64,000 nucleotides of DNA from an uncultured Clostridia bacterium (GCA_934476455.1 CAKSNY010000002.1:10689-74688), one strand, 5' to 3'. Positions 5,396 through 55,091 are shown, counted from the stretch's first letter. Notes: generated by a model from the letters alone, not told the origin. Program-made: numbers and translations.

Positions 5396-5768
5396 GGTTA
5401 TAAGCAGCCTGAACGGTCGCGGCAGCGTATAAGCTGATGAGGAAAGTCCGAGCTACGCAGGACAGGATGCCGGAGAAATCCCGGTGAAGGCGACTTTAAG
5501 GAAAGTGCAACAGAAATAAACCGCCGCACCTTGTGCGGTAAGGGTGGAAAGGCGGGGTAAGAGCCCACCGACATTGCGGTAACGCAGTGTGCCATGTAAA
5601 CCCCATCCGTAGCAACGCCGACAGGATTGGCTTGTCCGGCCTATAATCCGAAGGGCGGCTGGAGCTGTGCAGAGATGCACAGCGTAGACAGATGACCGTT
5701 TCGGGGGTAAGGTGCAGAAAACATCAAGCCCCTATGACAGAACTCGGCTTACAGGGCAGCTTATAACA
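5396..5768 (+). ncRNA. rnpB: RNase P RNA (bacterial)
   Basis: universal P4 strands GAGGAAAGTCCGAGC (5'-side) and ACAGAACTCGGCTTACAG (3'-side); P1 pairing between gttataagcagcctg (5397-5411) and cagggcagcttataac (5752-5767). Confidence 0.85.
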
Positions 5769-5775
5769 TAAAAAG

Positions 5776-5818
5776 GGCGTGCGGCAAAGTGCTTTTATTT
5801 TGCCGCGCGCCTTTTTGC
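5776..5818 (+). terminator. intrinsic terminator downstream of rnpB
   Basis: GC-rich imperfect hairpin ggcgtgcggcaaa...tttgccgcgcgcc followed by ttttt. Confidence 0.55.
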
Positions 5819-5846
5819 ATTCCGGATTTTTTTAACACCCCTTTTA
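5810..5846 (+). repeat. partial copy (3' module) of the multi-copy intergenic repeat element
   Basis: cctttttgcattccggatttttttaacacccctttt matches the 3' module of the copies at 17366-17404, 47887-47923 and 53259-53300. Confidence 0.5.
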
Positions 5847-5938: not shown

Positions 5939-7039
5939 ATGAAAAGGATTATTTCCTTTTTTGCAATTTTTATATTTATTTTTGGAGTAAATGCTTTTGC
6001 GTATGAGGATACGTTTGTTTCTCTTTCGGTAAACGGTATTTCGCAGGCACCGGACGGAAGCGTTTTTATACGCGACGGTATAACATATGCCGACGCCCGC
6101 GCCCTTTCGGAGGCTATGAACTATAGCTTTAAGGAATATTCAACGCATGACAGCGCGCTGATAAACAGCGGCAACTTGTCTGTGTGCATCACGCCCGAAA
6201 CAGATTATATAACGGTTGCAGACCTTACGGGAACTTCTATTTACGAATATGTTTTTCATAAGCTTTCGGCGCCGTGCCTTTATGCAAACGACAAATTTTA
6301 CATACCTGTGCGCGACTTTGCAAAGATTTTTAACTACTCGCTTAATTTCAGCCAGGAGCTTTTGACGGTATATCTTGACCGCAGCCAAAAGACATTTACC
6401 GCCGCACCTGTGGAGGATATTATAGGAGAGGCGCAGACGGAGGCATTGTTTATATTCGAGGGCAGCCAGCTGCCGGACGGGCATACGTACTTTTTCCAAA
6501 ACCAGGCGGAATTTGCACTGCCGAATTTTGGAAGCGGATATTGCTGGGCGTGTTCGTATGCAATGCTTTTGTCAAACGTTACCTTCTCGCGCATAACGCC
6601 TGCCGATGTTGCACAGATAAACCTGCGCCGTACAAAGAGCGGGGCGTATTGCTACCACTATGATATTATTTCGGAATACAATGTAAGTTTTGTTTCGGCG
6701 CTGCCGGAAAGCAGCCGCTATTACGGCGGGCGCGATATGGTGTCGGGCGGAACGTTTATAAAAAACCCCGAAAAAAGCGATACCGTTGTAATTGCCGCTC
6801 TCAGAGAGGCGCTGTCGCTGCACCCCGAGGGGATAATGGTGCGTTATGCGGGCTATCCGCATACAATGGTTGCGGTGGGCTTTGACCACGATAAAATAAT
6901 ATTTTACGACCCCGCGCCGACATCTTCTTCCGAGTACAGCGAAACGGGAAGATATATGGGCGTAGGGTTTGAGGAAACCTGCGTCGGCAAAAAAGGTTTT
7001 TCACTGTCTGATGTTACGTTTATACAGGCGATAAAATAG
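5939..7039 (+). CDS. secreted protein: signal peptide, copper-amine-oxidase-N-like stalk domains, C-terminal C39-like (BtrH_N-type) cysteine peptidase domain
   Basis: N-terminal signal MKRIISFFAIFIFIFGVNAFA; two stalk-like repeats; Cys motif GYCWACSYAMLLS and His motif HTMVAVGFDHD. Confidence 0.5.
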   Translation: MKRIISFFAIFIFIFGVNAFAYEDTFVSLSVNGISQAPDGSVFIRDGITYADARALSEAMNYSFKEYSTHDSALINSGNLSVCITPETDYITVADLTGTSIYEYVFHKLSAPCLYANDKFYIPVRDFAKIFNYSLNFSQELLTVYLDRSQKTFTAAPVEDIIGEAQTEALFIFEGSQLPDGHTYFFQNQAEFALPNFGSGYCWACSYAMLLSNVTFSRITPADVAQINLRRTKSGAYCYHYDIISEYNVSFVSALPESSRYYGGRDMVSGGTFIKNPEKSDTVVIAALREALSLHPEGIMVRYAGYPHTMVAVGFDHDKIIFYDPAPTSSSEYSETGRYMGVGFEETCVGKKGFSLSDVTFIQAIK

Positions 7040-7056: not shown

Positions 7057-8082
7057 ATGAGTATTGAAAGAAAGGCGTTCGGAACGCTTGACAACAAAGA
7101 TATTTATTTATTTGTGCTTGATAACGGCTGCGGGCTTAGCGCCGAAATTATAAACTACGGCGGAATTGTGCGCGCGCTTACGTTTAAAGGGACGGATGTT
7201 GTACTCGGGCGCGACACACTGGAGGAGTATCTTGAAAATAACGGCTGCTTCGGCGCGCTTATCGGCAGAAATTCAAACAGAATAGCGGGAGCGTCGTTTG
7301 TTTTAAACGGAAAAAAATATGCGCTGGCGGTAAACAACATAAAGGCAAACCTGCACGGCGGCAATGTGGGCTTTAATAAAAAAGTGTGGGATGCGTCCGC
7401 GCTTGACGGGGACGAACCCTCGCTTGTGCTTACACTTAAAAGCCCGGACGGGGAGGAGGGCTTCCCCGGGAATGCCGACATTAAGGTTACATATACGCTT
7501 ACGCGTGACAATGCGCTTAAAATACATTATGAAGGCGTTTGCGACCAAGACAGTATAATAAATCTTACAAACCACACGTATTTTAACCTTAACGGGCATA
7601 AAAGCGGCACAGTAGACAATCATACGCTTAAATTGCTCAGTGATTTTTACACGCCGAACACACCCGAATGTTACCCCACGGGAGAAGTTCTTAAGACAGA
7701 GGGTACGCCGTTTGATTTGCGCCAGGGAAAGCTGCTTGGCGATGTATTTAATTCGGACTGTGAGCAGATAAGGCTGTTTAACGGGTTTGACCATAATTTT
7801 GCGCTCAGCGGGTTCGGTATGCGTTTGTGCGGAACTCTTAAGGGCGATAAAACAGGTATAGAAATGGAGCTTTTGACAGACCGCCCCGCAGTACAGATTT
7901 ACACGGGCAACAGCATACAGCAGGGAAGAATTTGCAAAAACGGGGCGGTGTACCCCGTACACGGCGGCGTTTGCCTTGAAACACAGGTGTTCCCGAATTT
8001 TACGGCAAACTCGCATTTCCCGGGCGGATTTGTAAAAAGCGGTGAAAAGTACGATACAGTGACGGAATATAGGTTTAAGTAA
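7057..8082 (+). CDS. galM: aldose 1-epimerase (galactose mutarotase)
   Basis: 341 aa with conserved mutarotase motifs (NLHGG, NHTYFNL, ETQ...PN). Confidence 0.85.
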   Translation: MSIERKAFGTLDNKDIYLFVLDNGCGLSAEIINYGGIVRALTFKGTDVVLGRDTLEEYLENNGCFGALIGRNSNRIAGASFVLNGKKYALAVNNIKANLHGGNVGFNKKVWDASALDGDEPSLVLTLKSPDGEEGFPGNADIKVTYTLTRDNALKIHYEGVCDQDSIINLTNHTYFNLNGHKSGTVDNHTLKLLSDFYTPNTPECYPTGEVLKTEGTPFDLRQGKLLGDVFNSDCEQIRLFNGFDHNFALSGFGMRLCGTLKGDKTGIEMELLTDRPAVQIYTGNSIQQGRICKNGAVYPVHGGVCLETQVFPNFTANSHFPGGFVKSGEKYDTVTEYRFK

Positions 8083-8091
8083 ATAAGCATA

Positions 8092-8135
8092 AAAAACAGC
8101 CGCAACAAAATCATTTTGTTGCGGCTGTTTTTGTG
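8092..8135. terminator. bidirectional intrinsic terminator between convergent galM and glnA
   Basis: hairpin cagccgcaacaaaa-tca-ttttgttgcggctg flanked by A-run and T-run. Confidence 0.55.
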
Positions 8136-8160
8136 CTTATTTGAACGATATACAGGCGAT

Positions 8161-16761: not shown

Positions 16762-17084
16762 AAGGAGTTGTTTAAAAAGCCACAACCCGATAAGGAAGTA
16801 TTGGTTTTGAAAGCCGTTCTTTAAGTTTATACTTCGTAAACAGGCAGCCGTATACGTCAGTATTACGACTGCCTGTTTACTTGTCTAAATCTTAAATTCC
16901 GACCTTCAAAACTGCTTTGCACCCTGTAAACAATATTTTTTGATGAAGTTCAAGGCAAAAAAGCGAGTAATCCTGTCGGATTTCGAGCCTTTTTTAACGC
17001 TGAAATTCGCAAAAAAGATGTTTAGCAGGGCAATACTTCCTTGCCGGGCTGTGGCTAAAGCCATTGACTTTTAAACAACTCCTT
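16762..17084. repeat. ~320-nt intergenic segment closed by inverted repeats with nested internal helices (candidate structured ncRNA or miniature element)
   Basis: outer IR aggagttgtttaaaaag (16762-16778) / cttttaaacaactcct (17066-17082); inner IR aggaagtattg (16790-16800) / caatacttcct (17029-17039); perfect 12-bp hairpin 16836-16880. Confidence 0.35.
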
Positions 17085-17091
17085 CGCTCAA

Positions 17092-17404
17092 GGGGATAGG
17101 AAAAAAAGATTCGGAACGGACAAACTTCAGGCATATTGGATTCTGTTGTATTATGCCACGCCCGAAGGTGTACATAACAGGGCATCCCGAAAACCAAAGG
17201 TTTTTGGGAAAAAGGAGATACAGCGCTGATTTCGACGCCCGAGAGGTGAAGTTTGTTCGTAGCAAAAAGGCTTATAAATACGGGAAAATCGGATATAATG
17301 AGATTTTTCTGCCAAAATCGAGTTTTTAAACTGTTTTTATGGTTGCAAGCTCTTTATTATAATCGCCTTTTTGCGTTCCGGACTTTTTTAACATCCCCTT
17401 TTTA
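17092..17404 (+). repeat. multi-copy intergenic repeat element, copy A (carries ~208-nt insertion at 17158-17365)
   Basis: 5' module ggggataggaaaaaaagattcggaacggacaaacttcagg + hairpin GGCATA..TATGCC, 3' module cctttttgcgttccggacttttttaacatcccctttttatt; 3' T-run overlaps pyrR stop codon. Confidence 0.6.
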
Positions 17405-24774: not shown

Positions 24775-24804
24775 GCCACTGCCGTGTCAGGCGGTGGCTT
24801 TTTG
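24775..24804 (+). terminator. rpsT intrinsic terminator
   Basis: gccactgcc-gtgtca-ggcggtggc followed by tttttgc. Confidence 0.5.
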
Positions 24805-24841
24805 CATGCCGTTTTGTTTTTAATTTGGGGAGGATTTACAT

Positions 24842-41764: not shown

Positions 41765-41776
41765 AAAGGAGCATTT

Positions 41777-42895
41777 ATGGCAGACAGAAAAAAAAGCTAC
41801 GAAAGAAAAGGTCAGGTTGATTTTATATTGCTTATGGTTATAGTATGTCTGCTTTTGTTCGGGCTGATTATGCTTTTTTCGGCAAGCTCGCCGAAGGCGC
41901 TTCGCGAGGGCAATATATATTCAATTATAATAAAACAGGGCGGTATTTCGCTTTTGGGCTGCTTTTTAATGGCGGCAGCATCCGAGATTGATTATCACAG
42001 GTATAAAAAATACGCGCGTGTTATAATTATACTTACGGGTATTGTTATGTATGTTGTTCCTCTGTTCGGGTTTGCATCGCACGGGGCGCGGCGGCAGATT
42101 GCCGTGGGTCCTATCAGCTTTCAGCCGTCGGAGGTTGCAAAGTTTGCCCTTGTAATATATTATTCGGCGCGTCTTTCGGACAGAAAAACCTCTGACCTGA
42201 AAAATTTAAAAAACCTTGCAAAATATTTCGGAATTTTGGGCATTTATCTGCTTGCCTGCGTTTTGCAAAGCCATATGTCGGCGGCGGTTGTGCTTGCAAT
42301 AATAAGCGTAATGCTTTTATTTGCGGCGGGGCTGTCGGGTAAGCTTATGGGCACTGTTTTTGTTGTTATGCTGCCGCTCGCAACGTGGCTTGTTATGTCG
42401 GAGGAATACCGCCTTAACAGAATTAGGGCGCTGTTTCGCCCGTTTGATTACAGCCGCGATATAGGCTGGCAGATAATACAATCGCTTTATGCGGTTGGCT
42501 CGGGCGGGCTGTTCGGGCTTGGGCTTGGGCAGTCGCGCCAGAAATACCAATACCTGCCCGAGGCGCATAATGACTATATATACGCAATAGCGTGCGAGGA
42601 GCTGGGCTTTATCGGCGGAATAACGATAATTGCGCTGTTTGTGCTTTTCGTATGGCGCGGAATTTCAATAGCGCTTAACGCGCGCGACCGTTTCGGTATG
42701 CTGATGGCATTCGGCATTACGTCAATCGTAGGCGTGCAGATGCTTATAAATATCGGGGTTGTGCTGTCGGTGCTTCCATCTACGGGAATGCAGCTTCCGT
42801 TTTTCAGCGCGGGCGGTACATCAATGCTTATAATGCTTGCGGGAATGGGCGTGCTTTTAAACATTTCCAGAACAAGCAGAGTTAAAAAAATATAG
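41777..42895 (+). CDS. ftsW: SEDS-family peptidoglycan glycosyltransferase (FtsW/SpoVE)
   Basis: 10-TM SEDS protein; QPSE(V/F)AK and downstream conserved loop. Confidence 0.8.
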   Translation: MADRKKSYERKGQVDFILLMVIVCLLLFGLIMLFSASSPKALREGNIYSIIIKQGGISLLGCFLMAAASEIDYHRYKKYARVIIILTGIVMYVVPLFGFASHGARRQIAVGPISFQPSEVAKFALVIYYSARLSDRKTSDLKNLKNLAKYFGILGIYLLACVLQSHMSAAVVLAIISVMLLFAAGLSGKLMGTVFVVMLPLATWLVMSEEYRLNRIRALFRPFDYSRDIGWQIIQSLYAVGSGGLFGLGLGQSRQKYQYLPEAHNDYIYAIACEELGFIGGITIIALFVLFVWRGISIALNARDRFGMLMAFGITSIVGVQMLINIGVVLSVLPSTGMQLPFFSAGGTSMLIMLAGMGVLLNISRTSRVKKI

Positions 42896-47750: not shown

Positions 47751-47777
47751 TAAGGGCATTAAAACCAAAATTTAAAA

Positions 47778-47820
47778 GGAGCGGTTTAACGTCAATTGAC
47801 GTTAAACCGCTCCTTCATTT
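47778..47820 (+). terminator. intrinsic terminator (perfect 16-bp stem)
   Basis: ggagcggtttaacgtc-aatt-gacgttaaaccgctcc followed by ttcatttt. Confidence 0.6.
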
Positions 47821-47822
47821 TA

Positions 47823-47923
47823 GGGGATAGGGAAAAAAGCTACGGAACGGACAAATTTCAGGGATAGTGCAATAGAACTCAATATACCTTTTTGCGGTCC
47901 GGACTTTTTTACAGCCCCTTTTT
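47823..47923 (+). repeat. multi-copy intergenic repeat element, copy B (compact ~100-nt form)
   Basis: ggggatagggaaaaaagctacggaacggacaaatttcaggg...cctttttgcggtccggacttttttacagcccctttttat; 3' end supplies the last codons and stop of the convergent gene 47909-48595. Confidence 0.6.
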
Positions 47924-48595
47924 ATAATGCTCCTGCCAGTACAGGTTATCTATTTCCCACATTTTATTATTTAAATGAAGGAAAGAAAACATTTTGTAAA
48001 GAAACTGTACTTTCAGCGACGGCTTCGGGTTTTTTGCGTTTCTGCAAATTTTTGCCGCCGTTTTTTCAAGCTTCTTTTTAAAAGTTTTTTTAAATTTATC
48101 GGGCATATCACTCCAAAAATATTGCCATACGGGCTGTGTAACAATGTGCGTTTTTGCAATGCCCCAATAGTCTAAGCTGTCTTTAATATCGCGTGCGGCT
48201 TTTTTCAGCCCGCCGCCGCCCGCAGTTGCTATAACTGCGGCCTGCTTGTTTATCATATCAAAATCCGGGCGGTGAACAAGCCATCTGTAGCCGTAATGGT
48301 CCAGAAAGGTTTTTATTTGCCCCGGCGCGTGATAGCACCAAACGGGGCAGCAAAAAATAATAAGCTGTGACTGAAAAAACGCCTCGTTTATCGGTTTTAG
48401 ATATTCATAGCCTCCGCACTTGTCCTCGCTGCCGTGCATACAGGCATAGCACCCGCGGCATATGTGGGGCATATCGCGCGGAAGGGTAAACTCGAAAACA
48501 TTGTTTACATTTTTAAGCTTTGATATAAGGTATTTTGCGCCGTTGTATGTACTGCTGTTTTTTCTGTCCGTTGCTTTAATAATTGTAATGTTCAT
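47909..48595 (-). CDS. flavodoxin-like fold NAD(P)H-dependent FMN reductase family protein
   Basis: 228 aa; flavodoxin-like N-terminus (MNITIIKATDRKNSSTY), CxxC...C cluster (CRGCYACMHGSEDKC). Confidence 0.5.
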   Translation of the reverse strand: MNITIIKATDRKNSSTYNGAKYLISKLKNVNNVFEFTLPRDMPHICRGCYACMHGSEDKCGGYEYLKPINEAFFQSQLIIFCCPVWCYHAPGQIKTFLDHYGYRWLVHRPDFDMINKQAAVIATAGGGGLKKAARDIKDSLDYWGIAKTHIVTQPVWQYFWSDMPDKFKKTFKKKLEKTAAKICRNAKNPKPSLKVQFLYKMFSFLHLNNKMWEIDNLYWQEHYKKGL

Positions 48596-49604: not shown

Positions 49605-50825
49605 ATGAAAAATGTAAAAGATTACGGTGCGGCGGGCGACGGAAAAACCTTAGACACCGCCGCAATACAAAAAGCGGTTGACAGCGGGGGGATGGTGTAT
49701 ATCCCAAAAGGGGTATATATTACGGGAACAATATATTTAAAAAGCAACGGCGGGCTGCACCTTGCACCCGGTGCGGTGCTTAAAGGAAGCAGCGACAGGG
49801 CGCATTATAACAAAGACGTTTTCTGCCCGCAAAACGAGGTGTTTGCAGCCGAAAGAGTATCGGGGGCGCACCTTATAGCTGCAGTACAGCAGGAAAATAT
49901 TGTAATAGAGGGCGCGGGAACAATAGACGGCAGCGGGCGTTATTGGCTTAACGAAAAGCATCTAATTCCGAAAACAGAGGACTACTATCCCTATCTTTCG
50001 GAACGCCCCGGGCAAATGATGTATTTTTGCGAATGCAAAAATGTACACATAAACGGCGTTAATATTAAAAATGCACCATATTGGCATTTGTTTTTTCACG
50101 GCTGCGAAGAGGTTTTTGCAAGCGGCTTGACAATAAAGGGCGACCGCACACGTTGGACAAACGACGGAATTGATATAGATTGCTGCAAGCGCGTTACCAT
50201 AAGCGACTGCATTATCGACGTCGGCGACGATGCAATTACATTGCGCGCAAATAAGGGCAGGCTGTTAAACAGCGACGGCATTTGCGAAAATGTAACAATT
50301 ACAAATTGCAGCCTGTACTCGTACAACGACTACGGCATACGCGTAGGTGTGGGCGGTGGTGAGATACGCCGCTGCTTAGTATCAAACGTAAGCATAGAGG
50401 CGGCGCACCGCAGCGCCGTAGGTATTATGAGCCGCTGGTCAAAAACAAGCGTAAACGCCGTGACGGTACACGGCATTTTGTTTCAGAATATTATTGCTGC
50501 TGCCCCGCGCCCGATAGAAATAATTACATCTTTCGGGGAAAAGCACATAGACGGGGAATACGGCATAGAAAACATAAGCTTTAACAGTTGTATTTTTAAA
50601 ACGTACGAAAACAATGTTATCTGCGGGTTTGAGGGGCGGCTTAAAAACATTTTTTTAAACAACAGCGTTATATGCCTTGAAAAAACACCGCATAAAAACA
50701 AAATAGAAATATTTAGGGATATAAAAAGGGGAACGCCGCTTTTTATAAAGGATGCGGAAAACGTGTTTTTAAACAATATTTTTGCGGAGGATGAAGGCAG
50801 CGAAGCCGTATTGCTGAAAAAATGA
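49605..50825 (+). CDS. glycoside hydrolase family 28-like (polygalacturonase-type parallel beta-helix)
   Basis: VKDYGAAGDGKTLDT N-terminus, NDGIDID / DDAITL catalytic motifs; divergently oriented from AraC regulator. Confidence 0.7.
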   Translation: MKNVKDYGAAGDGKTLDTAAIQKAVDSGGMVYIPKGVYITGTIYLKSNGGLHLAPGAVLKGSSDRAHYNKDVFCPQNEVFAAERVSGAHLIAAVQQENIVIEGAGTIDGSGRYWLNEKHLIPKTEDYYPYLSERPGQMMYFCECKNVHINGVNIKNAPYWHLFFHGCEEVFASGLTIKGDRTRWTNDGIDIDCCKRVTISDCIIDVGDDAITLRANKGRLLNSDGICENVTITNCSLYSYNDYGIRVGVGGGEIRRCLVSNVSIEAAHRSAVGIMSRWSKTSVNAVTVHGILFQNIIAAAPRPIEIITSFGEKHIDGEYGIENISFNSCIFKTYENNVICGFEGRLKNIFLNNSVICLEKTPHKNKIEIFRDIKRGTPLFIKDAENVFLNNIFAEDEGSEAVLLKK

Positions 50826-50832
50826 ACATAAA

Positions 50833-50880
50833 AAAGGGAGTGCGGCAAAACAAAAGCATTTTGCCGCACTCTCCGCGGTT
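50833..50880. terminator. bidirectional terminator between GH28 gene and ftsH
   Basis: gagtgcggcaaaa...ttttgccgcactc hairpin with flanking A/T runs. Confidence 0.55.
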
Positions 50881-52692
50881 TTATTTTTCAAGTATAGACA
50901 TAAACTCTTCGCCTGTAATTGTTTCGTGCTCGTACAAATATTTGGCAAGCTCGTCCAGCTTTTGCCGGTTTTCCTTAAGCAGCGCAGCTGCCTTTTCGTG
51001 CTGCCTTTTTACAAGAGCAACAACCTGTTCGTCAATTTTCGTTTGTGTTTCGCCGCTGCAGGCAAGCGCCGCGTCGCCGCCGAGGTATTGGTTTGTTACG
51101 GTTTCCATTGCCACCATATCAAAATTATCGCTCATACCGTAGCGCGTAATCATTGCACGGGCAAGCTTTGTTGCCTGCTCTATATCGTTTGAAGCGCCGG
51201 TTGTAACAGAGCCGAACACAACCTCCTCTGCGGCGCGGCCGCCCGTAAAGGTTGCGATTTTGTTTTCGATTTCTTCCTTACTCATAAGGTAATGGTTGCC
51301 GTTTTCAACCTGCATTGTATAGCCCAGTGCGCCCGACGTTCTGGGAATAATCGTAATTTTTTGCACCGGTGCGGAATTTGTTTGCTTCGCCGCAACAAGG
51401 GCGTGCCCTATTTCGTGGTACGAAACAATAAGCTTTTCCTTTTCGGTAAGGATAGCATTTTTCTTTTGGTAACCCGCAATAACAACCTCTATGCTTTCTT
51501 CAAGGTCGGCTTGGGTAACGGCGGCTCTTTTATCCCTTACGGCGCGCAGCGCGGCTTCGTTTACGATATTTGCAAGCTCTGCACCCGACGCACCCGACGC
51601 CATTTTTGCAACCTGTGAATAATCTATACCGGGCATTGTTCTTACCTTTTTGGCGTGTACCTTTAAAATTTCCTCTCTGCCCTTGAGGTCCGGCAATTCT
51701 ACGGGAACGCGCCTGTCAAAGCGCCCGGGGCGCGTAAGCGCAGGGTCTAAGGATTCCGGGCGGTTTGTTGCGGCAAGTATAATAACGCCGGTGTTTCCTT
51801 CAAAGCCGTCCATCTCGGTTAAAAGCTGGTTTAAGGTTTGCTCGCGCTCGTCATTGCCGCTTATGTTGCCGTCGCGCTTTTTGCCGATGGCGTCAATTTC
51901 GTCTATAAAAACAATACAGGGGGCTTTATCCTTTGCCTGCTTGAAAAGGTCGCGCACCTTTGACGCACCCATACCTACAAACATTTCCACAAATTCCGAG
52001 CCGGACATTGAGAAAAACGGCACATTGGCCTCACCTGCAACGGCTTTTGCAAGCATTGTTTTACCTGTTCCGGGAGGACCCACCAGCAAAATACCCTTCG
52101 GCATAGAGGCGCCTATTTCGGAATATTTGTGAGGATTGTGCAAATAGTCCACAATTTCCGTAAGGTTTTCCTTTGCTTCATCCTCGCCGGCAACGTCGGA
52201 AAACTTTATTCCGTTTGAGGATTTTACATAGATTTTTGCGTTGCTTTTACCCATATTAAACATCATAGAGTCTGCCCCGCCCATTTTTTTCATCATCTGG
52301 CGGGAAAGAAGCTGCCCTATGCCCACAAACAAAAGAATGGGAAATACCCACGAAAGCAAAAACGACATAAGGGGCGAGGCTTCCTTTACGATTTCCTTTG
52401 AAAATTTCGCGCCCGAGCCATACAGCCTTTCCGTCATACCGGGATCTGTGAGAAGCCCTGTTTTATAAAAGTTTTTTTCTGCTTTGTCTGTAAAAATTAT
52501 CTGATTATCCTGCACCTCTACAAGCCCGATTTGCTTGTCCTCGGTCATTTTCATAAATGTGCCGTAATCCACCTCTTTTATTTGCCGCTGCAAAAAAAAC
52601 GGCATTGCAAAGATGTTAAGCAGCATTAAAAGCGCCATTGCGATTGCATAGTAAAACAAAAGCGGCTTTTTTGGTTTTTTTACTTCGTTCAT
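50881..52692 (-). CDS. ftsH: ATP-dependent zinc metalloprotease FtsH
   Basis: Walker [12 protein letters not shown], zinc motif HEIGHAL. Confidence 0.9.
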
Positions 52693-52709: not shown

Positions 52710-53186
52710 TTAAAGGATTTTTTCCATACCTATTTTCTGTATGTGAAGCCCTATTTTTTCGTAAAATTTTACGGCGGACGTGTTATCTGCCCAAACGTTT
52801 AAGGTTACGTTATAGCAGCCGCAATTTTTTGCATATTCAAGCACATATTCGTAAAGGCTTTTCCCTATATGGCAGCCGCGTGCGTTTTCATCTACGCAAA
52901 GGTCGTCTATATAAAGCGTTTTTATATCCGTCATATTATTGTCGTTTACAAATTGCTTGTGAATACAAAAGGCATAGCCCAAAATGCGCCCCTCTCTTTC
53001 GGCGACAAACACGGGTGTTTGGTCATCTGCAAGTATTTTTTCAAGCTCTGCGTCCGTATATTTTTTTGCGCCGCGTTTAAAAATATCGGGGCGTGCGTCA
53101 CTGTGTACCTTATGCACCTGATACAAAAGCTTGTCTATAGTTAAAATATCTCCCTTTGATGCTCTTCTTATAACCGGTTTTTCCAT
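52710..53186 (-). CDS. GNAT-family N-acetyltransferase
   Basis: 158 aa, motif A region (NARGCHIGKSLYEYV). Confidence 0.75.
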   Translation of the reverse strand: MEKPVIRRASKGDILTIDKLLYQVHKVHSDARPDIFKRGAKKYTDAELEKILADDQTPVFVAEREGRILGYAFCIHKQFVNDNNMTDIKTLYIDDLCVDENARGCHIGKSLYEYVLEYAKNCGCYNVTLNVWADNTSAVKFYEKIGLHIQKIGMEKIL

Positions 53187-53258: not shown

Positions 53259-53363
53259 ACAAAAAAGGGGATGTAAAAAAAAGCTCAGAACGCAAAAAGG
53301 CATATTGGGCTTTATTACATTATGCCTGAAGTTTGTCCGTTCCGAAGCTTTTTCCCTATCCCC
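53259..53363 (-). repeat. multi-copy intergenic repeat element, copy C (minus strand)
   Basis: reverse complement reads gaggggatagggaaaaagcttcggaacggacaaacttcaggcataatgtaataaagcccaatatgcctttttgcgttctgagcttttttttacatccccttttttgt. Confidence 0.6.
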
Positions 53364-53527
53364 TCGAAGAAACGAAATTCGAGAATTTGGGGAGTTGTCA
53401 GAGGGGATTTCCCCTCTGACGTAAAAAAACGCGGTTTTCGCGGGCGTGCAGTGCCGGCCCTTGTTCTCAAGCCGAAAGCTCGCTTTCGGAGCTTTCGGCT
53501 TGAAACGTGTCGGTATAGCCGACACGC

Positions 53528-54940
53528 TCAAAGGGTTTCCACACGTATTGTCCCCGTCTTTCCGCTGCCTGCGGGCGACATACCCTCTGTCATAACTATT
53601 GTATCGCCGCTTGTAAGCCCCAAATGCTCCCGCGCGGCACGTGCGGCATGGTAAAACAGCACGTCGCCCGATGTGAACTGTTCGCACATAACGGGTACAA
53701 CCCCCCAAGAAAGAGCAAGCTTATACCAAACCTTTTTGTCGGGCGTCATACCGATAATATCCATCGGCGCACGGAAGCGCGATACCATACGAACTGTTTT
53801 CCCGGAAAGAGAGCATGCAACAATTCCCTTTGCGGATATATCTATCGCCATACCGCACGTAGCGTGGGAAACGGCGTCCACCTGGTTTGTTATGGGAAAT
53901 TCCGCATTTCTGAAGCGTTTGGCAAAGTTTATATGCCGCTCGGTTTCTTCCACAATTTCGCTCATTGTGCGCACCGTTTCAACGGGGTATTTGCCCGCAG
54001 CGGATTCACCCGAAAGCATAACCGCGCTTGTGCCGTCATACACGGCGTTTGCAACGTCGGATATTTCCGCACGTGTCGGGCGGGGGTTGTGAATCATAGA
54101 TTCCAGCATTTCGGTTGCGGTTATAACGCGCTTGCCCAAAAGGCGGCATTTTGTAATAATGTATTTTTGCAGCGCCGGAAGCTCTGTAAACGGAACCTCT
54201 ACACCCAAATCGCCGCGGCCTATCATTATTCCGTCGCACTCGGTGCATATATCGTCTATATTATCAATTCCGGCACGGTTTTCTATTTTTGCTATTATGG
54301 CAATGTCGCCGCCGCCGTTTTCGCGGAGAAAGCCTTTAAGGTCAAGAATATCCTGTTTGGTGGAAACAAACGAAGCCGCAACGTAATCCACCCCGTTTTC
54401 TATACCGAAAAGAAGGTCACACTTGTCCTGCTCACTTAAATATACCTGGTGCAAAAGCTTATTCGGAAAGCTCATACTTTTTCTGTCGGAAAGCTCGCCC
54501 CCGGCAATAACGGTGCATACGATGTCCTCGCCGGTAATTTCCTTTACCTCGAAAATAACAAGCCCGTTATTTACAAGCACCCTGTCGCCCTTTAAAAGAT
54601 CCTTGCAAAGCCCTTTATAATTTACGGAAACGATTTCTTTGTTTCCCACACATTCACGCGTGGTAAAGGTGAAGGTGTCGCCGTCCTCCAGGCGGATTTT
54701 CCCGTTTTCAAAGGTACCTATTCTGTATTCGGGACCCTTGGTATCAAGCATTATGGCAATCGGCATATCAAGCGTTTCGCGCACCTTTTTTATCATATCA
54801 AACTTCTTTTTATGCTCCTCGTGCGAGCCGTGTGAAAAATTAAGCCGTGCAACGTTAAGCCCCGCAAGACACATTTTTGTGAACACCTTTTCAGAGCTGC
54901 TTGCAGGCCCTATTGTACATACTATTTTTGTTTTGCGCAT
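53528..54940 (-). CDS. pyk: pyruvate kinase
   Basis: MRKTKIVCTIGPAS N-terminus and conserved PK motifs; start set at 54940 behind GAGAGGGTG RBS. Confidence 0.9.
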   Translation of the reverse strand: MRKTKIVCTIGPASSSEKVFTKMCLAGLNVARLNFSHGSHEEHKKKFDMIKKVRETLDMPIAIMLDTKGPEYRIGTFENGKIRLEDGDTFTFTTRECVGNKEIVSVNYKGLCKDLLKGDRVLVNNGLVIFEVKEITGEDIVCTVIAGGELSDRKSMSFPNKLLHQVYLSEQDKCDLLFGIENGVDYVAASFVSTKQDILDLKGFLRENGGGDIAIIAKIENRAGIDNIDDICTECDGIMIGRGDLGVEVPFTELPALQKYIITKCRLLGKRVITATEMLESMIHNPRPTRAEISDVANAVYDGTSAVMLSGESAAGKYPVETVRTMSEIVEETERHINFAKRFRNAEFPITNQVDAVSHATCGMAIDISAKGIVACSLSGKTVRMVSRFRAPMDIIGMTPDKKVWYKLALSWGVVPVMCEQFTSGDVLFYHAARAAREHLGLTSGDTIVMTEGMSPAGSGKTGTIRVETL

Positions 54941-55091
54941 ATGCTGACACCCTCTCATTACAAAATCTTTCTTATTATATATTATATATGCAAAAAAACA
55001 TTTGTCAAGATTTTGCTTGCGGCAATTTACGTATTTTTATCACAGGGGGCATTATTTTATGTATGAAAATAATCACAACAAAAAAACACTA

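What the first reader, a model, noticed from the sequence alone, without database searches (positions are those of the whole stretch)
47823..47923. Family of ~105-nt structured intergenic repeat elements, at least 4 copies in 64 kb
Near-identical two-module elements occur at 17092-17404 (+, with insertion), 47823-47923 (+) and 53259-53363 (-). The consensus is 5' GGGGATAGGGAAAAAAGnTnCGGAACGGACAAAyTTCAGG, then a short hairpin, then CCTTTTTGCGkTCCGGACTTTTTTAmAkCCCCTTTTT 3'. A 3'-module-only copy sits at 5810-5846, directly after the rnpB terminator. The 5' GGGG...AAAAAAG can pair with the 3' CTTTTTT...CCCC, and the element ends in a U-run. All copies lie downstream of a gene that has its own terminator hairpin. 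In two cases the element's U-rich 3' end supplies the stop codon, and in one also the last codons, of a convergent gene (pyrR; the flavodoxin-like gene at 47909-48595). That density suggests either a small RNA family or a mobilisable miniature element.
Basis: seen in the sequence. Interest (0 to 1): 0.6.

Follow-up and report, generated by a model that had tools for sequence, protein, structure and literature searches.

The report
Nested palindromic intergenic repeat family

Summary
Two ~100-nt copies lie at 47823-47923 (+) and 53267-53363 (-), one ~310-nt copy at 17092-17404 (+), and a 3'-arm-only copy at 5810-5846 (+). None is expected by chance. Rfam has no match.

The 310-nt copy is not a short element with an insertion. 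It is the long form. Homologues occur in another species (L026) and twice in a phage contig (L041). All fold into the same three-way junction: an outer stem that covaries, an invariant 66-nt arm, and a third stem that covaries. The two short copies appear to share one internal deletion junction, so they probably descend from one deleted ancestor copied to two loci.

Conspecific strains (97-99% identical flanks) differ. The c53 copy is missing in some, and the rpmB-pyrR spacer has at least five alleles. In L026 the element replaces a plain terminator seen in a sister strain. No target-site duplication or GTAG tag was found, and no transposase was identified. The short copy c47 diverges about 3-4 times faster than its flanks, without compensatory changes.

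Best reading: MITE/ERIC/REP-like selfish palindromic modules, nested in terminator hairpins, that act at most as accessory terminators. Genome-wide copy number and transcription could not be tested.

The parts
47823..47923 (+). Short-form element c47. The 5' arm is GGGGATAGGGAAAAAAGCTACGGAACGGACAAATTTCAGG. A decayed central hairpin follows. The 3' arm is CCTTTTTGCGGTCCGGACTTTTTTACAGCCCC, followed by TTTTT. The last codons and the stop of the convergent flavodoxin-like gene (47909-48595, -) lie in its 3' arm.
   Evidence: model R1: 114 bits, E 1.5e-27. The copy is identical in seven strain contigs and 92% identical in the L047 lineage.
53267..53363 (-). Short-form element c53, the best-preserved hairpin. 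A T-run follows, down to 53261. It lies between pyruvate kinase (53528-54958, -) and a GNAT gene (52710-53186, -).
   Evidence: MFE -38.8 kcal/mol, z -4.7; 115.5 bits. It is absent from conspecific strains L047, L048, L049 and L050.
17092..17404 (+). Long-form element c17. It comprises the 5' arm (17092-17131), a GGCATA..TATGCC hairpin (17131-17157), a P2 arm carrying extra insertions (to about 17262), a P3 stem GCAAAAAGGC/GCCTTTTTGC enclosing an AT-rich interior with the hairpin GAAAATC..GATTTTC, the 3' arm (17366-17398), and a T-run.
   Evidence: z -6.2. Homology to L026 (E 1e-10) and to phage copies V1 and V2 (E 2e-17). Consensus fold. Strain alleles.
5810..5846 (+). Solo 3' arm c5 (CCTTTTTGCATTCCGGATTTTTTTAACACCCCTTTT). 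It is fused to the 3' arm of the hairpin that follows rnpB (Rfam hit 5401-5767).
   Evidence: It is present with small variants in six other strains.
47776..47815 (.). Perfect 'B' hairpin (AAGGAGCGGTTTAACGTCAA / TTGACGTTAAACCGCTCCTT) directly upstream of c47. Its arm is related to the reverse complement of the A 3' arm. The same hairpin type precedes the A modules at the rpmB-pyrR locus and, in strain L050, the solo A 3' end at the pyk locus.
16762..17084 (.). 'B-long': the B hairpin with a ~280-bp palindromic insert (inner inverted repeats 16778-16803 and 17031-17056). It abuts c17. Strains with the short spacer alleles carry a ~40-nt B hairpin here instead.

Best explanation
These are copies of a family of non-coding, non-autonomous palindromic repeat modules, in the manner of MITE, ERIC or REP/BIME elements. 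They colonise the terminator region behind genes in an uncultured human-gut Clostridia lineage (nearest named FtsH hits: Monoglobaceae MAGs) and in at least one phage.

The basic form is the ~200-320-nt long form. As a single strand it folds into a three-way junction:
- P1: an outer stem made of the two terminal arms, with an A-run on the 5' side and a T-run on the 3' side.
- P2: a sequence-invariant 66-nt arm (AGAACGGACAAACTGAACCCGAAGGCGTAC...GTACGCCGAGAGGTGAAGTTTGTTCGT).
- P3: a stem closing a variable AT-rich interior.

The ~100-nt copies c47 and c53 are internally deleted derivatives. They keep the two arms and a small nested hairpin, and they appear to have been copied to two loci after the deletion. 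Further hairpin modules insert into loops or arms of existing hairpins. Segments invert, are deleted down to solo arms, and are probably exchanged between copies. This makes these spacers hypervariable between strains.

Shown here: the repeats are real, they fold, stems P1 and P3 covary, presence and absence differ between strains, modules are nested, and the family reaches another species and a phage.

Inferred: the elements are co-transcribed with the upstream gene. Because each is an A-run, long stem and T-run unit, it acts at most as an accessory, partly bidirectional terminator or 3'-end hairpin. Spread needs a trans-acting enzyme, not identified, that recognises the folded strand, with P2 as the likeliest recognition site. 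The short copies are evolving near-neutrally.
For: Repeat reality:
- Patterns occur 3 and 2 times against 0 in shuffles; BLAST E 4e-23 between c47 and c53.

Long form in other genomes:
- L026, a species whose FtsH is 86% identical.
- Phage contig L041, which carries terminase, portal and capsid genes, holds two copies.
- A further copy with the same arms but a different interior lies after an acpP-like gene in MT837285.1.

Common structure:
- All long forms fold to the same Y shape, with z -6.1 to -7.5.
- 7 of 49 consensus pairs show double-sided changes, all in P1 and P3. P2 is invariant.
- The outer stem is GGGGAT/ATCCCC, GGGGC/GCCCC or CCGCGCG/CGCGCGG and pairs in every copy.

Strand preference:
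- Sense folds are more stable than antisense in 7 of 8 arm pairs. For P2 the values are -32.8 vs -26.3 kcal/mol.
- Every copy is co-oriented with the gene upstream. All 4 copies lying between tandem genes are sense.

Gain and loss:
- Strains L047-L049 (97.4-98.2% identical flanks) lack c53 and keep only TTTCCCTATCCCC plus a T-run. L050 has a B hairpin plus TTTTTTACATCCCC.
- The rpmB-pyrR spacer has alleles of 163-206, 702 and 746 bp. The most divergent strain (L033, 93-97%) carries a short allele.
- L024 has a 26-nt terminator where L026 has the element.

Deletion origin of the short forms:
- c47 and c53 appear to share the junction ..AT(G/A)CC|TTTTTGCG. They retain the 3' half of P3 without its partner.

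Near-neutral decay:
- c47 is 92% identical between lineages against 97.4-98.2% for flanks (8 differences in 102 nt). Its hairpin mismatches are not compensated.
Against: No target-site duplication flanks the GGGG...CCCC ends. No transposase or recombinase gene is linked to any copy in the DNA seen. The empty sites are replacements or remnants rather than clean empty sites, so transposition proper is not demonstrated. Recombination or gene conversion between terminator-like hairpins could produce much of the pattern.

Only about five loci are known in or near this species. The source genome was not in the species collection, and the metagenome scan returned only orthologues, so a high copy number is unproven.

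The complete invariance of P2 across species and a phage is stronger than expected for a purely selfish, decaying repeat. It could mean an RNA function.

Phage copy V1 and the MT837285.1 copy lack the T-run after the outer stem, so the terminator property is not universal. Covariation rests on three independent lineages. Complementarity between palindrome arms could also be kept by templated repair rather than by selection.
Confidence: 0.6

Rival explanations
1. The long form is a functional cis-acting structured RNA, for example a 3'-UTR or intergenic element that controls termination, processing or stability, or has a role in phage-host interplay. Under this reading the invariant P2 arm is the active or protein-binding part. 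The RNA spreads by horizontal transfer, including on phages, and the short copies are dead remnants.
For: P2 is identical in L026, V1 and V2 and nearly so in c17, while P1, P3 and the interior diverge by 30-40%. This includes the unpaired internal-loop bases (tandem GA/GA; CGAAGG/CCGAGAGG). The sense strand is favoured by 6.5 kcal/mol. The orientation is always sense to the upstream gene. In the phage, two copies sit in regulatory positions just upstream of promoters, one of them before the terS operon. Fold z-scores are -6 to -7.5.
Against: There is no Rfam family, even at permissive thresholds. In c17 the P2 arm is broken up by insertions: a 28-nt hairpin, a ~60-nt insert, and a further 45 nt in some strains. 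That argues against constraint in this genome. The element is dispensable: strains of the same species lack it at the same sites. An invariant arm is equally what a transposase or recombinase recognition site would look like.
Confidence: 0.2
2. The elements are independent small-RNA genes: a multicopy trans-acting sRNA family of ~100 nt, each ending in its own terminator.
For: Each window copy is a long hairpin ending in a U-run. A TATAAT box with a weak -35 hexamer lies inside c17 (sequence).
Against: The consensus scan called no promoter at or just upstream of the elements. Each copy starts a few bases after the upstream gene's terminator. c47 has lost most of its fold (z -0.98, 33 of 200 shuffles fold as well). 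Pair changes within the species are one-sided or disruptive, and the covariation term is +0.09. c53 is absent in sister strains. Solo half-copies exist. Rfam gives no hit.
Confidence: 0.07
3. These are ordinary intrinsic terminators that resemble each other through convergence (A-run, stem, T-run) or through a purely local duplication, with no mobility.
For: The covariance model of the short form also picks up plain bidirectional terminators at 8071-8158 and 50811-50892. Copies sit exactly where terminators sit. The B hairpin is called as a terminator.
Against: The similarity is sequence-specific over 100 nt (84%, E 4e-23), including loop and mismatch positions. The 20-mer CGGAACGGACAAAYTTCAGG is shared by three loci. 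Each copy follows a gene that already has a terminator. Homologues exist in another species, in a phage and in an unlinked contig. P2 has no terminator logic.
Confidence: 0.08

Closest known systems
ERIC / IRU elements of enterobacteria (127-bp imperfect palindromes); comparison drawn from my own knowledge of the literature
   Same: Both are imperfect palindromes of ~100-130 nt in transcribed intergenic regions. Both fold as long RNA hairpins. Both exist as shorter variants made by internal deletion and longer variants with inserts at internal sites. Both vary between strains, and neither has an associated gene.
   Different: There is no sequence relationship, and the host phylum is different (Clostridia). 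Here the long form has a conserved three-way junction with an invariant arm and is shared with a phage. Nesting of several unrelated hairpin modules is prominent.
REP / BIME / REPIN elements mobilised by RAYT transposases (PMC3733652, PMC3116915)
   Same: Both are extragenic palindromic units placed mainly downstream of genes. Both form mosaic clusters of different hairpin units. G-T pairing suggests a single-strand or RNA form. Abundance and presence differ between strains. Neither has a target-site duplication.
   Different: The units here are much longer than the 20-40 nt of REPs. No unpaired GTAG or CGTC tag lies at an end. No RAYT gene was seen. The survey in PMC3733652 lists no Firmicutes among the hosts of such repeats.
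Correia / NEMIS elements of Neisseria; RUP and BOX of Streptococcus pneumoniae; Bcr1 of the Bacillus cereus group (classical bacterial MITE-like repeats; from my own knowledge)
   Same: All are ~100-160-nt non-coding repeats with terminal inverted repeats. They are inserted near gene ends, co-transcribed, and able to act as terminators or processing sites. They are polymorphic between strains.
   Different: Those families have defined target duplications (TA, TTTAT and similar) and, for some, a candidate parent IS. No duplication or parent was found here, and the filled and empty alleles differ by replacement rather than simple insertion.
Bidirectional intrinsic terminators
   Same: Both have an A-run, a stem and a T-run. 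The window copies end in CCCC followed by T5-6 and sit between convergent or tandem genes.
   Different: These stems are 25-30 bp with 40-250 nt enclosed. They are sequence-related across loci and genomes, redundant with a preceding terminator, and two members lack the T-run.

Membership tests
MITE (miniature inverted-repeat transposable element) | Terminal inverted repeats | tested here: met
   The 5' arm and the reverse complement of the 3' arm match over ~30-35 nt with mismatches. The arms pair in all 8 arm sets tested.
MITE (miniature inverted-repeat transposable element) | Target-site duplication of fixed length flanking each copy | tested here: not met
   The flanks TTTTA/TTTTT, TTCGA/TTTTT and CTCAA/TTTTT show no consistent duplication. 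Filled and empty alleles differ by replacement. Only the nested 45-nt hairpin has 6-bp direct repeats (ACAGCG).
MITE (miniature inverted-repeat transposable element) | Parent autonomous IS with the same ends, or a matching transposase in the genome | not testable with these tools
   The source genome was not retrievable, and collection scans and contig look-ups were capped. No transposase is evident among the Pfam labels of genes called on contigs that overlap the window.
MITE (miniature inverted-repeat transposable element) | Presence/absence polymorphism between close strains and copies at unrelated loci | tested here: met
   c53 is absent in L047-L050. The long alleles at rpmB-pyrR occur only in the window's subclade. 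L024 and L026 differ. Copies lie at four window loci, plus MT837285.1, L026 and L041.
REP / REPIN / BIME | Short (20-40 nt) palindromic unit tagged at one end by an unpaired GTAG or CGTC (PMC3733652) | tested here: not met
   The ends are GGGGATAGG... and ...ACATCCCC. A GTAG occurs only internally and paired (in P2 and in the L026 hairpin).
REP / REPIN / BIME | Association with a RAYT (IS200/IS605-type tyrosine transposase) gene | not testable with these tools
   Only ~85 kb of the source species and fragments of its relatives could be read. No such gene was seen in them.
REP / REPIN / BIME | Extragenic location, mostly 3' of genes, in mosaic clusters of several hairpin units | tested here: met
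   B hairpin plus A element at 47776-47923. B-long plus A-long at 16762-17404. A pile of hairpins 3' of pyk.
Intrinsic (bidirectional) terminator | Stable stem immediately followed by a U-run; for bidirectional action, an A-run before the stem | tested here: inconclusive
   All four window copies end in CCCC followed by T4-6 and have AAAAAAG/CTTTTTT inside the stem. V1 and the MT837285.1 copy lack the U-run. The simple scanner cannot score stems with long interiors. No termination data are available.
Any curated RNA family (Rfam 15) | Score at or above the family's gathering threshold | tested here: not met
   Only RNase P and one tRNA were found in the window. Nothing fell on any copy, and nothing in L026 or L041. 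Permissive scans gave only chance miRNA-type hairpin hits.
IS200/IS605-derived PATE | Subterminal hairpins in direct orientation, no terminal inverted repeats, insertion 3' of a fixed tetra- or pentanucleotide, no duplication | tested here: not met
   There is no duplication, which fits. But the ends are inverted repeats, and the 5' flanks (TTTTA, TTCGA, CTCAA, GCCTG) share no fixed target.

The most novel reading that the evidence does not exclude
The long form is the cis-acting core of a so-far undescribed kind of hairpin-targeting element. It is a ~200-nt Y-shaped single-strand module whose invariant P2 arm is recognised by an unidentified enzyme, or acts as an RNA. It enters the loops or arms of terminator hairpins without a target duplication, carries phage-to-chromosome traffic, and builds 'Russian-doll' palindromes behind genes in gut Clostridia.
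Probability: 0.2. Interest if true: 0.7.

Novelty: new variant of a known kind. Interest (0 to 1): 0.45.

Why it matters
Intergenic palindromic repeats are well studied in Proteobacteria, where REP, ERIC and Correia elements shape mRNA stability, termination and genome rearrangement. The survey read here (PMC3733652) lists no Firmicutes among hosts of REP-type repeats. This family shows that an abundant but uncultured gut Clostridia lineage has its own system. Its spacers differ between strains that are 98-99% identical, which makes them useful strain markers and a likely cause of assembly breaks. One module is shared with a phage.

If the invariant P2 arm proves to be a recognition site or an active RNA, the family would give a tractable entry point to how such gene-less hairpin elements move. 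That question is still open even for ERIC and the CGTC-type REPs. For annotation, the family also explains spurious small ORFs (the 58-aa call inside c17) and gene ends that run into repeats.

Tried and rejected
- The species-genome scan with the 20-mer CGGAACGGACAAAYTTCAGG gave only a chance hit in an actinobacterial MAG, so no genome-wide count was possible.
- The metagenome scan gave only orthologous c47 and c53 loci plus one chance hit.
- Viral scans with the 5' 20-mer and the 3' arm gave nothing. The 18-mer AAACTGAACCCGAAGGCG gave three chance hits in coding DNA.
- Two contig look-ups failed because the ORF starts I chose were not the called starts.
- FtsH homologues at 85-89% identity were fetched in the hope of finding syntenic empty sites. 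Synteny is not conserved, but this did reveal L026.
- A search with the 58-aa ORF inside c17, meant to find other long copies through spurious gene calls, returned only alleles of the same locus. I take the ORF to be non-coding: it has no Shine-Dalgarno sequence and is not open in L026.
- A search with the ORF overlapping phage copy V1 found only the separate upstream block, without an intact element.
- BLASTN of the phage block against the phage and plasmid collections found nothing. The window's c17 region found only MT837285.1 among phage records.
- Weak BLAST and model hits at 41774-41849, 24798-24823, 8071-8158 and 50811-50892 were rejected as coding sequence, chance matches or plain terminators.
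- Tn3-type ends (GGGG start, 38-bp inverted repeat, 5-bp duplication) were considered and dropped: there is no 5-bp duplication.
- Integron attC, dif/Xer, retron, group II intron and omega-RNA readings were considered. None found any support in sequence or in Rfam.

Full report

Yes. The cited sequences are present. The 3'-module pattern matches at 5810, 17366 and 47887. The 5'-module pattern matches at 17092 and 47823. None is expected in shuffled sequence. BLASTN adds the minus-strand copy at 53262-53364, which is 84% identical to c47 over 104 nt with E 4e-23. The 5' module is an imperfect inverted repeat of the 3' module, so each copy is a long imperfect palindrome. A covariance model built from the short copies scores c53 at 115.5 bits and c47 at 114 bits. 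It finds no other true copy in the window. The next hits (8071-8158, 50811-50892) are plain terminators of A-run, hairpin, T-run type. Rfam reports only RNase P (5401-5767) and one tRNA in the window, and nothing on the elements even at permissive thresholds.

**2. Where does the window come from?**

Exact-protein look-ups place it in human-gut metagenomes, including Hadza and other cohorts. FtsH forms a 98-100% identity cluster, and the next relatives are at 89% or lower. The few named hits are MAGs labelled Monoglobaceae, Clostridia or Eubacteriales. The species-genome collection did not contain the repeat. The metagenome scan returned only orthologous c47 and c53 loci. A genome-wide copy count was therefore impossible.

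**3. The 313-nt copy is the long form, not a short copy with an insert.**

In L026, a species whose FtsH is 86% identical, a ~205-nt homologue of c17 lies directly after ftsH in the opposite orientation. A phage contig, L041, carries small and large terminase, portal and capsid genes. It holds two further copies, V1 and V2. Aligned, the four share these parts:
- a 5' arm;
- an invariant block, AGAACGGACAAACTGAACCCGAAGGCGTAC..GTACGCCGAGAGGTGAAGTTTGTTCGTAGCAAAAAGGC;
- a variable AT-rich interior with a hairpin;
- GCCTTTTTGCG and a 3' arm.

Each folds on its own into the same three-way junction, with z-scores of -6.2, -6.1 and -7.5. In the consensus fold, 7 of 49 pairs show double-sided changes. 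All seven are in the outer stem P1 or in P3. P2 does not vary at all. The outer stem is GGGGAT/ATCCCC in the window, GGGGC/GCCCC in L026 and CCGCGCG/CGCGCGG in the phage, and it always pairs. The sense strand folds better than the antisense in 7 of 8 arm sets. For P2 the difference is 6.5 kcal/mol, because of G-U pairs.

**4. The short copies are deletion derivatives.**

c47 and c53 keep the arms and a small GGCATA..TATGCC hairpin. In c17 that hairpin sits inside the 5' part. Read from the sequence, both short copies join it to TTTTTGCG at what looks like the same point (..ATGCC|TTTTTGCG). Both retain the 3' half of P3 without its partner. The simplest history is one internal deletion at a GCC microhomology, followed by copying of the short form to two loci 5.4 kb apart.

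A further copy in MT837285.1 has the same arms but an unrelated interior, and it lies after an acpP-like gene. That record is labelled a faecal phage scaffold, but its ORFs look bacterial.

**5. Strain comparisons.**

- *pyk-GNAT spacer.* The window, L004 and L005 carry c53. Strains L047-L049, with 97.4-98.2% identical flanks, have only TTTCCCTATCCCC plus a T-run there. That sequence is the exact reverse complement of the element's first 13 bases. The divergent strain L050 has a B hairpin followed by TTTTTTACATCCCC and a T-run.
- *rpmB-pyrR spacer.* Alleles of 163-168 bp carry a ~40-nt B hairpin plus the 5' module alone. In one variant the hairpin and GGGGATAGGA are inverted. The window type is 702 bp (B-long plus A-long). 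A 746-bp allele carries an extra 45-nt hairpin flanked by ACAGCG repeats. Short alleles occur in strains 98.3-98.7% identical in the upstream (polA-side) flank, and in the most divergent strain (93-97%). The long alleles therefore look derived within the window's subclade.
- *ftsH 3' end in the other species.* L024 has a 26-nt terminator hairpin exactly where L026 has the element plus a hairpin built from the element's own 3' arm.

None of these pairs shows a clean insertion with a target duplication. They are replacements or remnants.

**6. Nesting.**

- The B hairpin upstream of c47 (47776-47815) and at rpmB-pyrR has arms related to the reverse complement of the A 3' arm.
- B-long is a B hairpin with a ~280-bp palindromic insert.
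- V2 carries a 285-nt insert with ends GGCATAGCAGATTCGAAC/GTTCGAGTCTGTTATGCC. These are the same kind of ends as the small central hairpin of the short copies.
- c17's P2 arm contains extra inserts.

The region is thus built from several hairpin families inserted into one another.

**7. Constraint.**

Within the species, pair changes in the short form are one-sided or disruptive, and the covariation term is +0.09. c47 has a fold z-score of only -0.98. Between lineages c47 is 92% identical against 97.4-98.2% for its flanks, which is 8 differences in 102 nt. Its central-hairpin mismatches are not repaired. One change in strain L002 does improve pairing. Together with the absence of c53 in sister strains, this argues that the short copies are dispensable and drifting.

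**8. Position and likely effect.**

Every copy is co-oriented with the gene upstream of it. The four copies between tandem genes (c5, c53, V1, V2) are all sense. The window copies end in CCCC followed by T4-6 and have AAAAAAG/CTTTTTT within the stem. That is the layout of a bidirectional terminator. Each, however, follows a gene that already has a hairpin terminator. V1 and the MT837285.1 copy lack the T-run.

The flavodoxin-like gene ends inside c47: its last codons, KKGL and the stop, lie at 47909-47923. The pyrR stop lies in T-run+A sequence shared with alleles that lack the 3' module.

**9. Interpretation.**

The evidence fits a family of gene-less palindromic repeat modules of the MITE/ERIC/REP kind that live in terminator regions. 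The conserved long form is the parent type, and decaying short derivatives descend from it. Membership in the defined families fails on tested features: there is no target duplication (MITE), no GTAG or CGTC tag (REP), and the ends are inverted repeats (against a PATE).

The mobilising activity is unknown. The invariant P2 arm is the best candidate for its recognition site. It could equally mark an RNA function, which is the main rival reading. A trans-acting sRNA family and mere terminator convergence are both unlikely.

**10. Limits.**

- Copy number, transcription and any linked enzyme could not be tested.
- Covariation rests on three independent lineages.
- I edited c17 and V2 for alignment A4 by removing nested inserts.
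- Complementarity between palindrome arms can be maintained by templated repair as well as by selection.

Noticed in passing
window 16762-17084: A second palindromic element, 'B-long' (323 bp), abuts c17. Its outer arms are AAGGAGTTGTTTAAAA / TTTTAAACAACTCCTT, and its inner 26-nt inverted repeats lie at 16778-16803 and 17031-17056. Conspecific strains with short spacers have only a ~40-nt hairpin here.
   Followed up: partly
L032 9767-9818, L036 9052-9103 (inside the c17 orthologue; the L039 contig ends just before this site): A 45-nt hairpin insertion (GTTCGCAGCAAATTGAAATTTGCTGCGAAC core) is flanked by ACAGCG direct repeats. It is the only nested module with a duplication-like signature. It happens to keep the frame of the 58-aa ORF at window 17153-17329. 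That ORF is called as a gene in metagenome annotations (P0121, P0122) but looks spurious.
   Followed up: partly
L031 10248-10313, L038 (rpmB-pyrR spacer): In this allele, the small hairpin together with the first 10 bases of the element (GGGGATAGGA) is inverted relative to other strains, reading TCCTATCCCC. The same strain has the inverted 5' end as the only remnant at the c53 locus.
   Followed up: partly
L041 2597-3160 and 7335-7911 (phage contig IMGVR_UViG_3300029860_000340): A ~560-nt non-coding block is duplicated at 82% identity. One copy lies upstream of the small-terminase operon and one lies after the portal gene. Each ends in an outward promoter-like TTTACA..TATAAT/TACAAT. The upstream half contains a tRNA-like T-arm (GCGGGGGTTTCGATTCCCCCGC). 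ARAGORN and Rfam do not recognise it.
   Followed up: partly
L051 2980-3300: The same upstream block occurs in a bacterial chromosome, between a dockerin-domain gene and a pseudouridine synthase gene. It is followed only by a vestige of the long form (GAGGTGCAGCAAAAGGCAATTGCCTTTT). Spurious ORFs across it are in the protein database (P0123-P0125).
   Followed up: partly
L041 7052-7335: A 285-nt insertion sits in the 3' arm of phage copy V2. Its terminal inverted repeats are GGCATAGCAGATTCGAAC / GTTCGAGTCTGTTATGCC. These are the same type of ends as the small GGCATA..TATGCC hairpin in the centre of c47, c53 and c17.
   Followed up: no
window 53370-53527 (3' of pyruvate kinase): A stack of several unrelated hairpins lies between the pyk stop and c53. 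It differs between strains: L047 has extra segments, and L050 has a spacer of only 139 bp.
   Followed up: no
L046 (MT837285.1, whole record): A GenBank record labelled 'UNVERIFIED: Bacteriophage sp.' from human faeces carries a copy of the element at 6121-6232. Its ORFs look bacterial (an acyl-carrier-protein-like gene, among others), so it is probably a chromosomal fragment.
   Followed up: partly
window 8071-8158 and 50811-50892: Ordinary bidirectional terminators between convergent genes (AAAAAACAGCCGCAACAAAATCATTTTGTTGCGGCTGTTTTT; AAAAAAGGGAGTGCGGCAAAAC..TTTTGCCGCACTCTCC). They score weakly with the element's covariance model, which shows how terminator-like the element's architecture is.
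   Followed up: yes
L018-L030 (ftsH neighbourhoods of relatives): Gene order around ftsH is completely different in the nearest relatives (85-89% FtsH identity). The window species is therefore rather isolated among sampled genomes.
   Followed up: no
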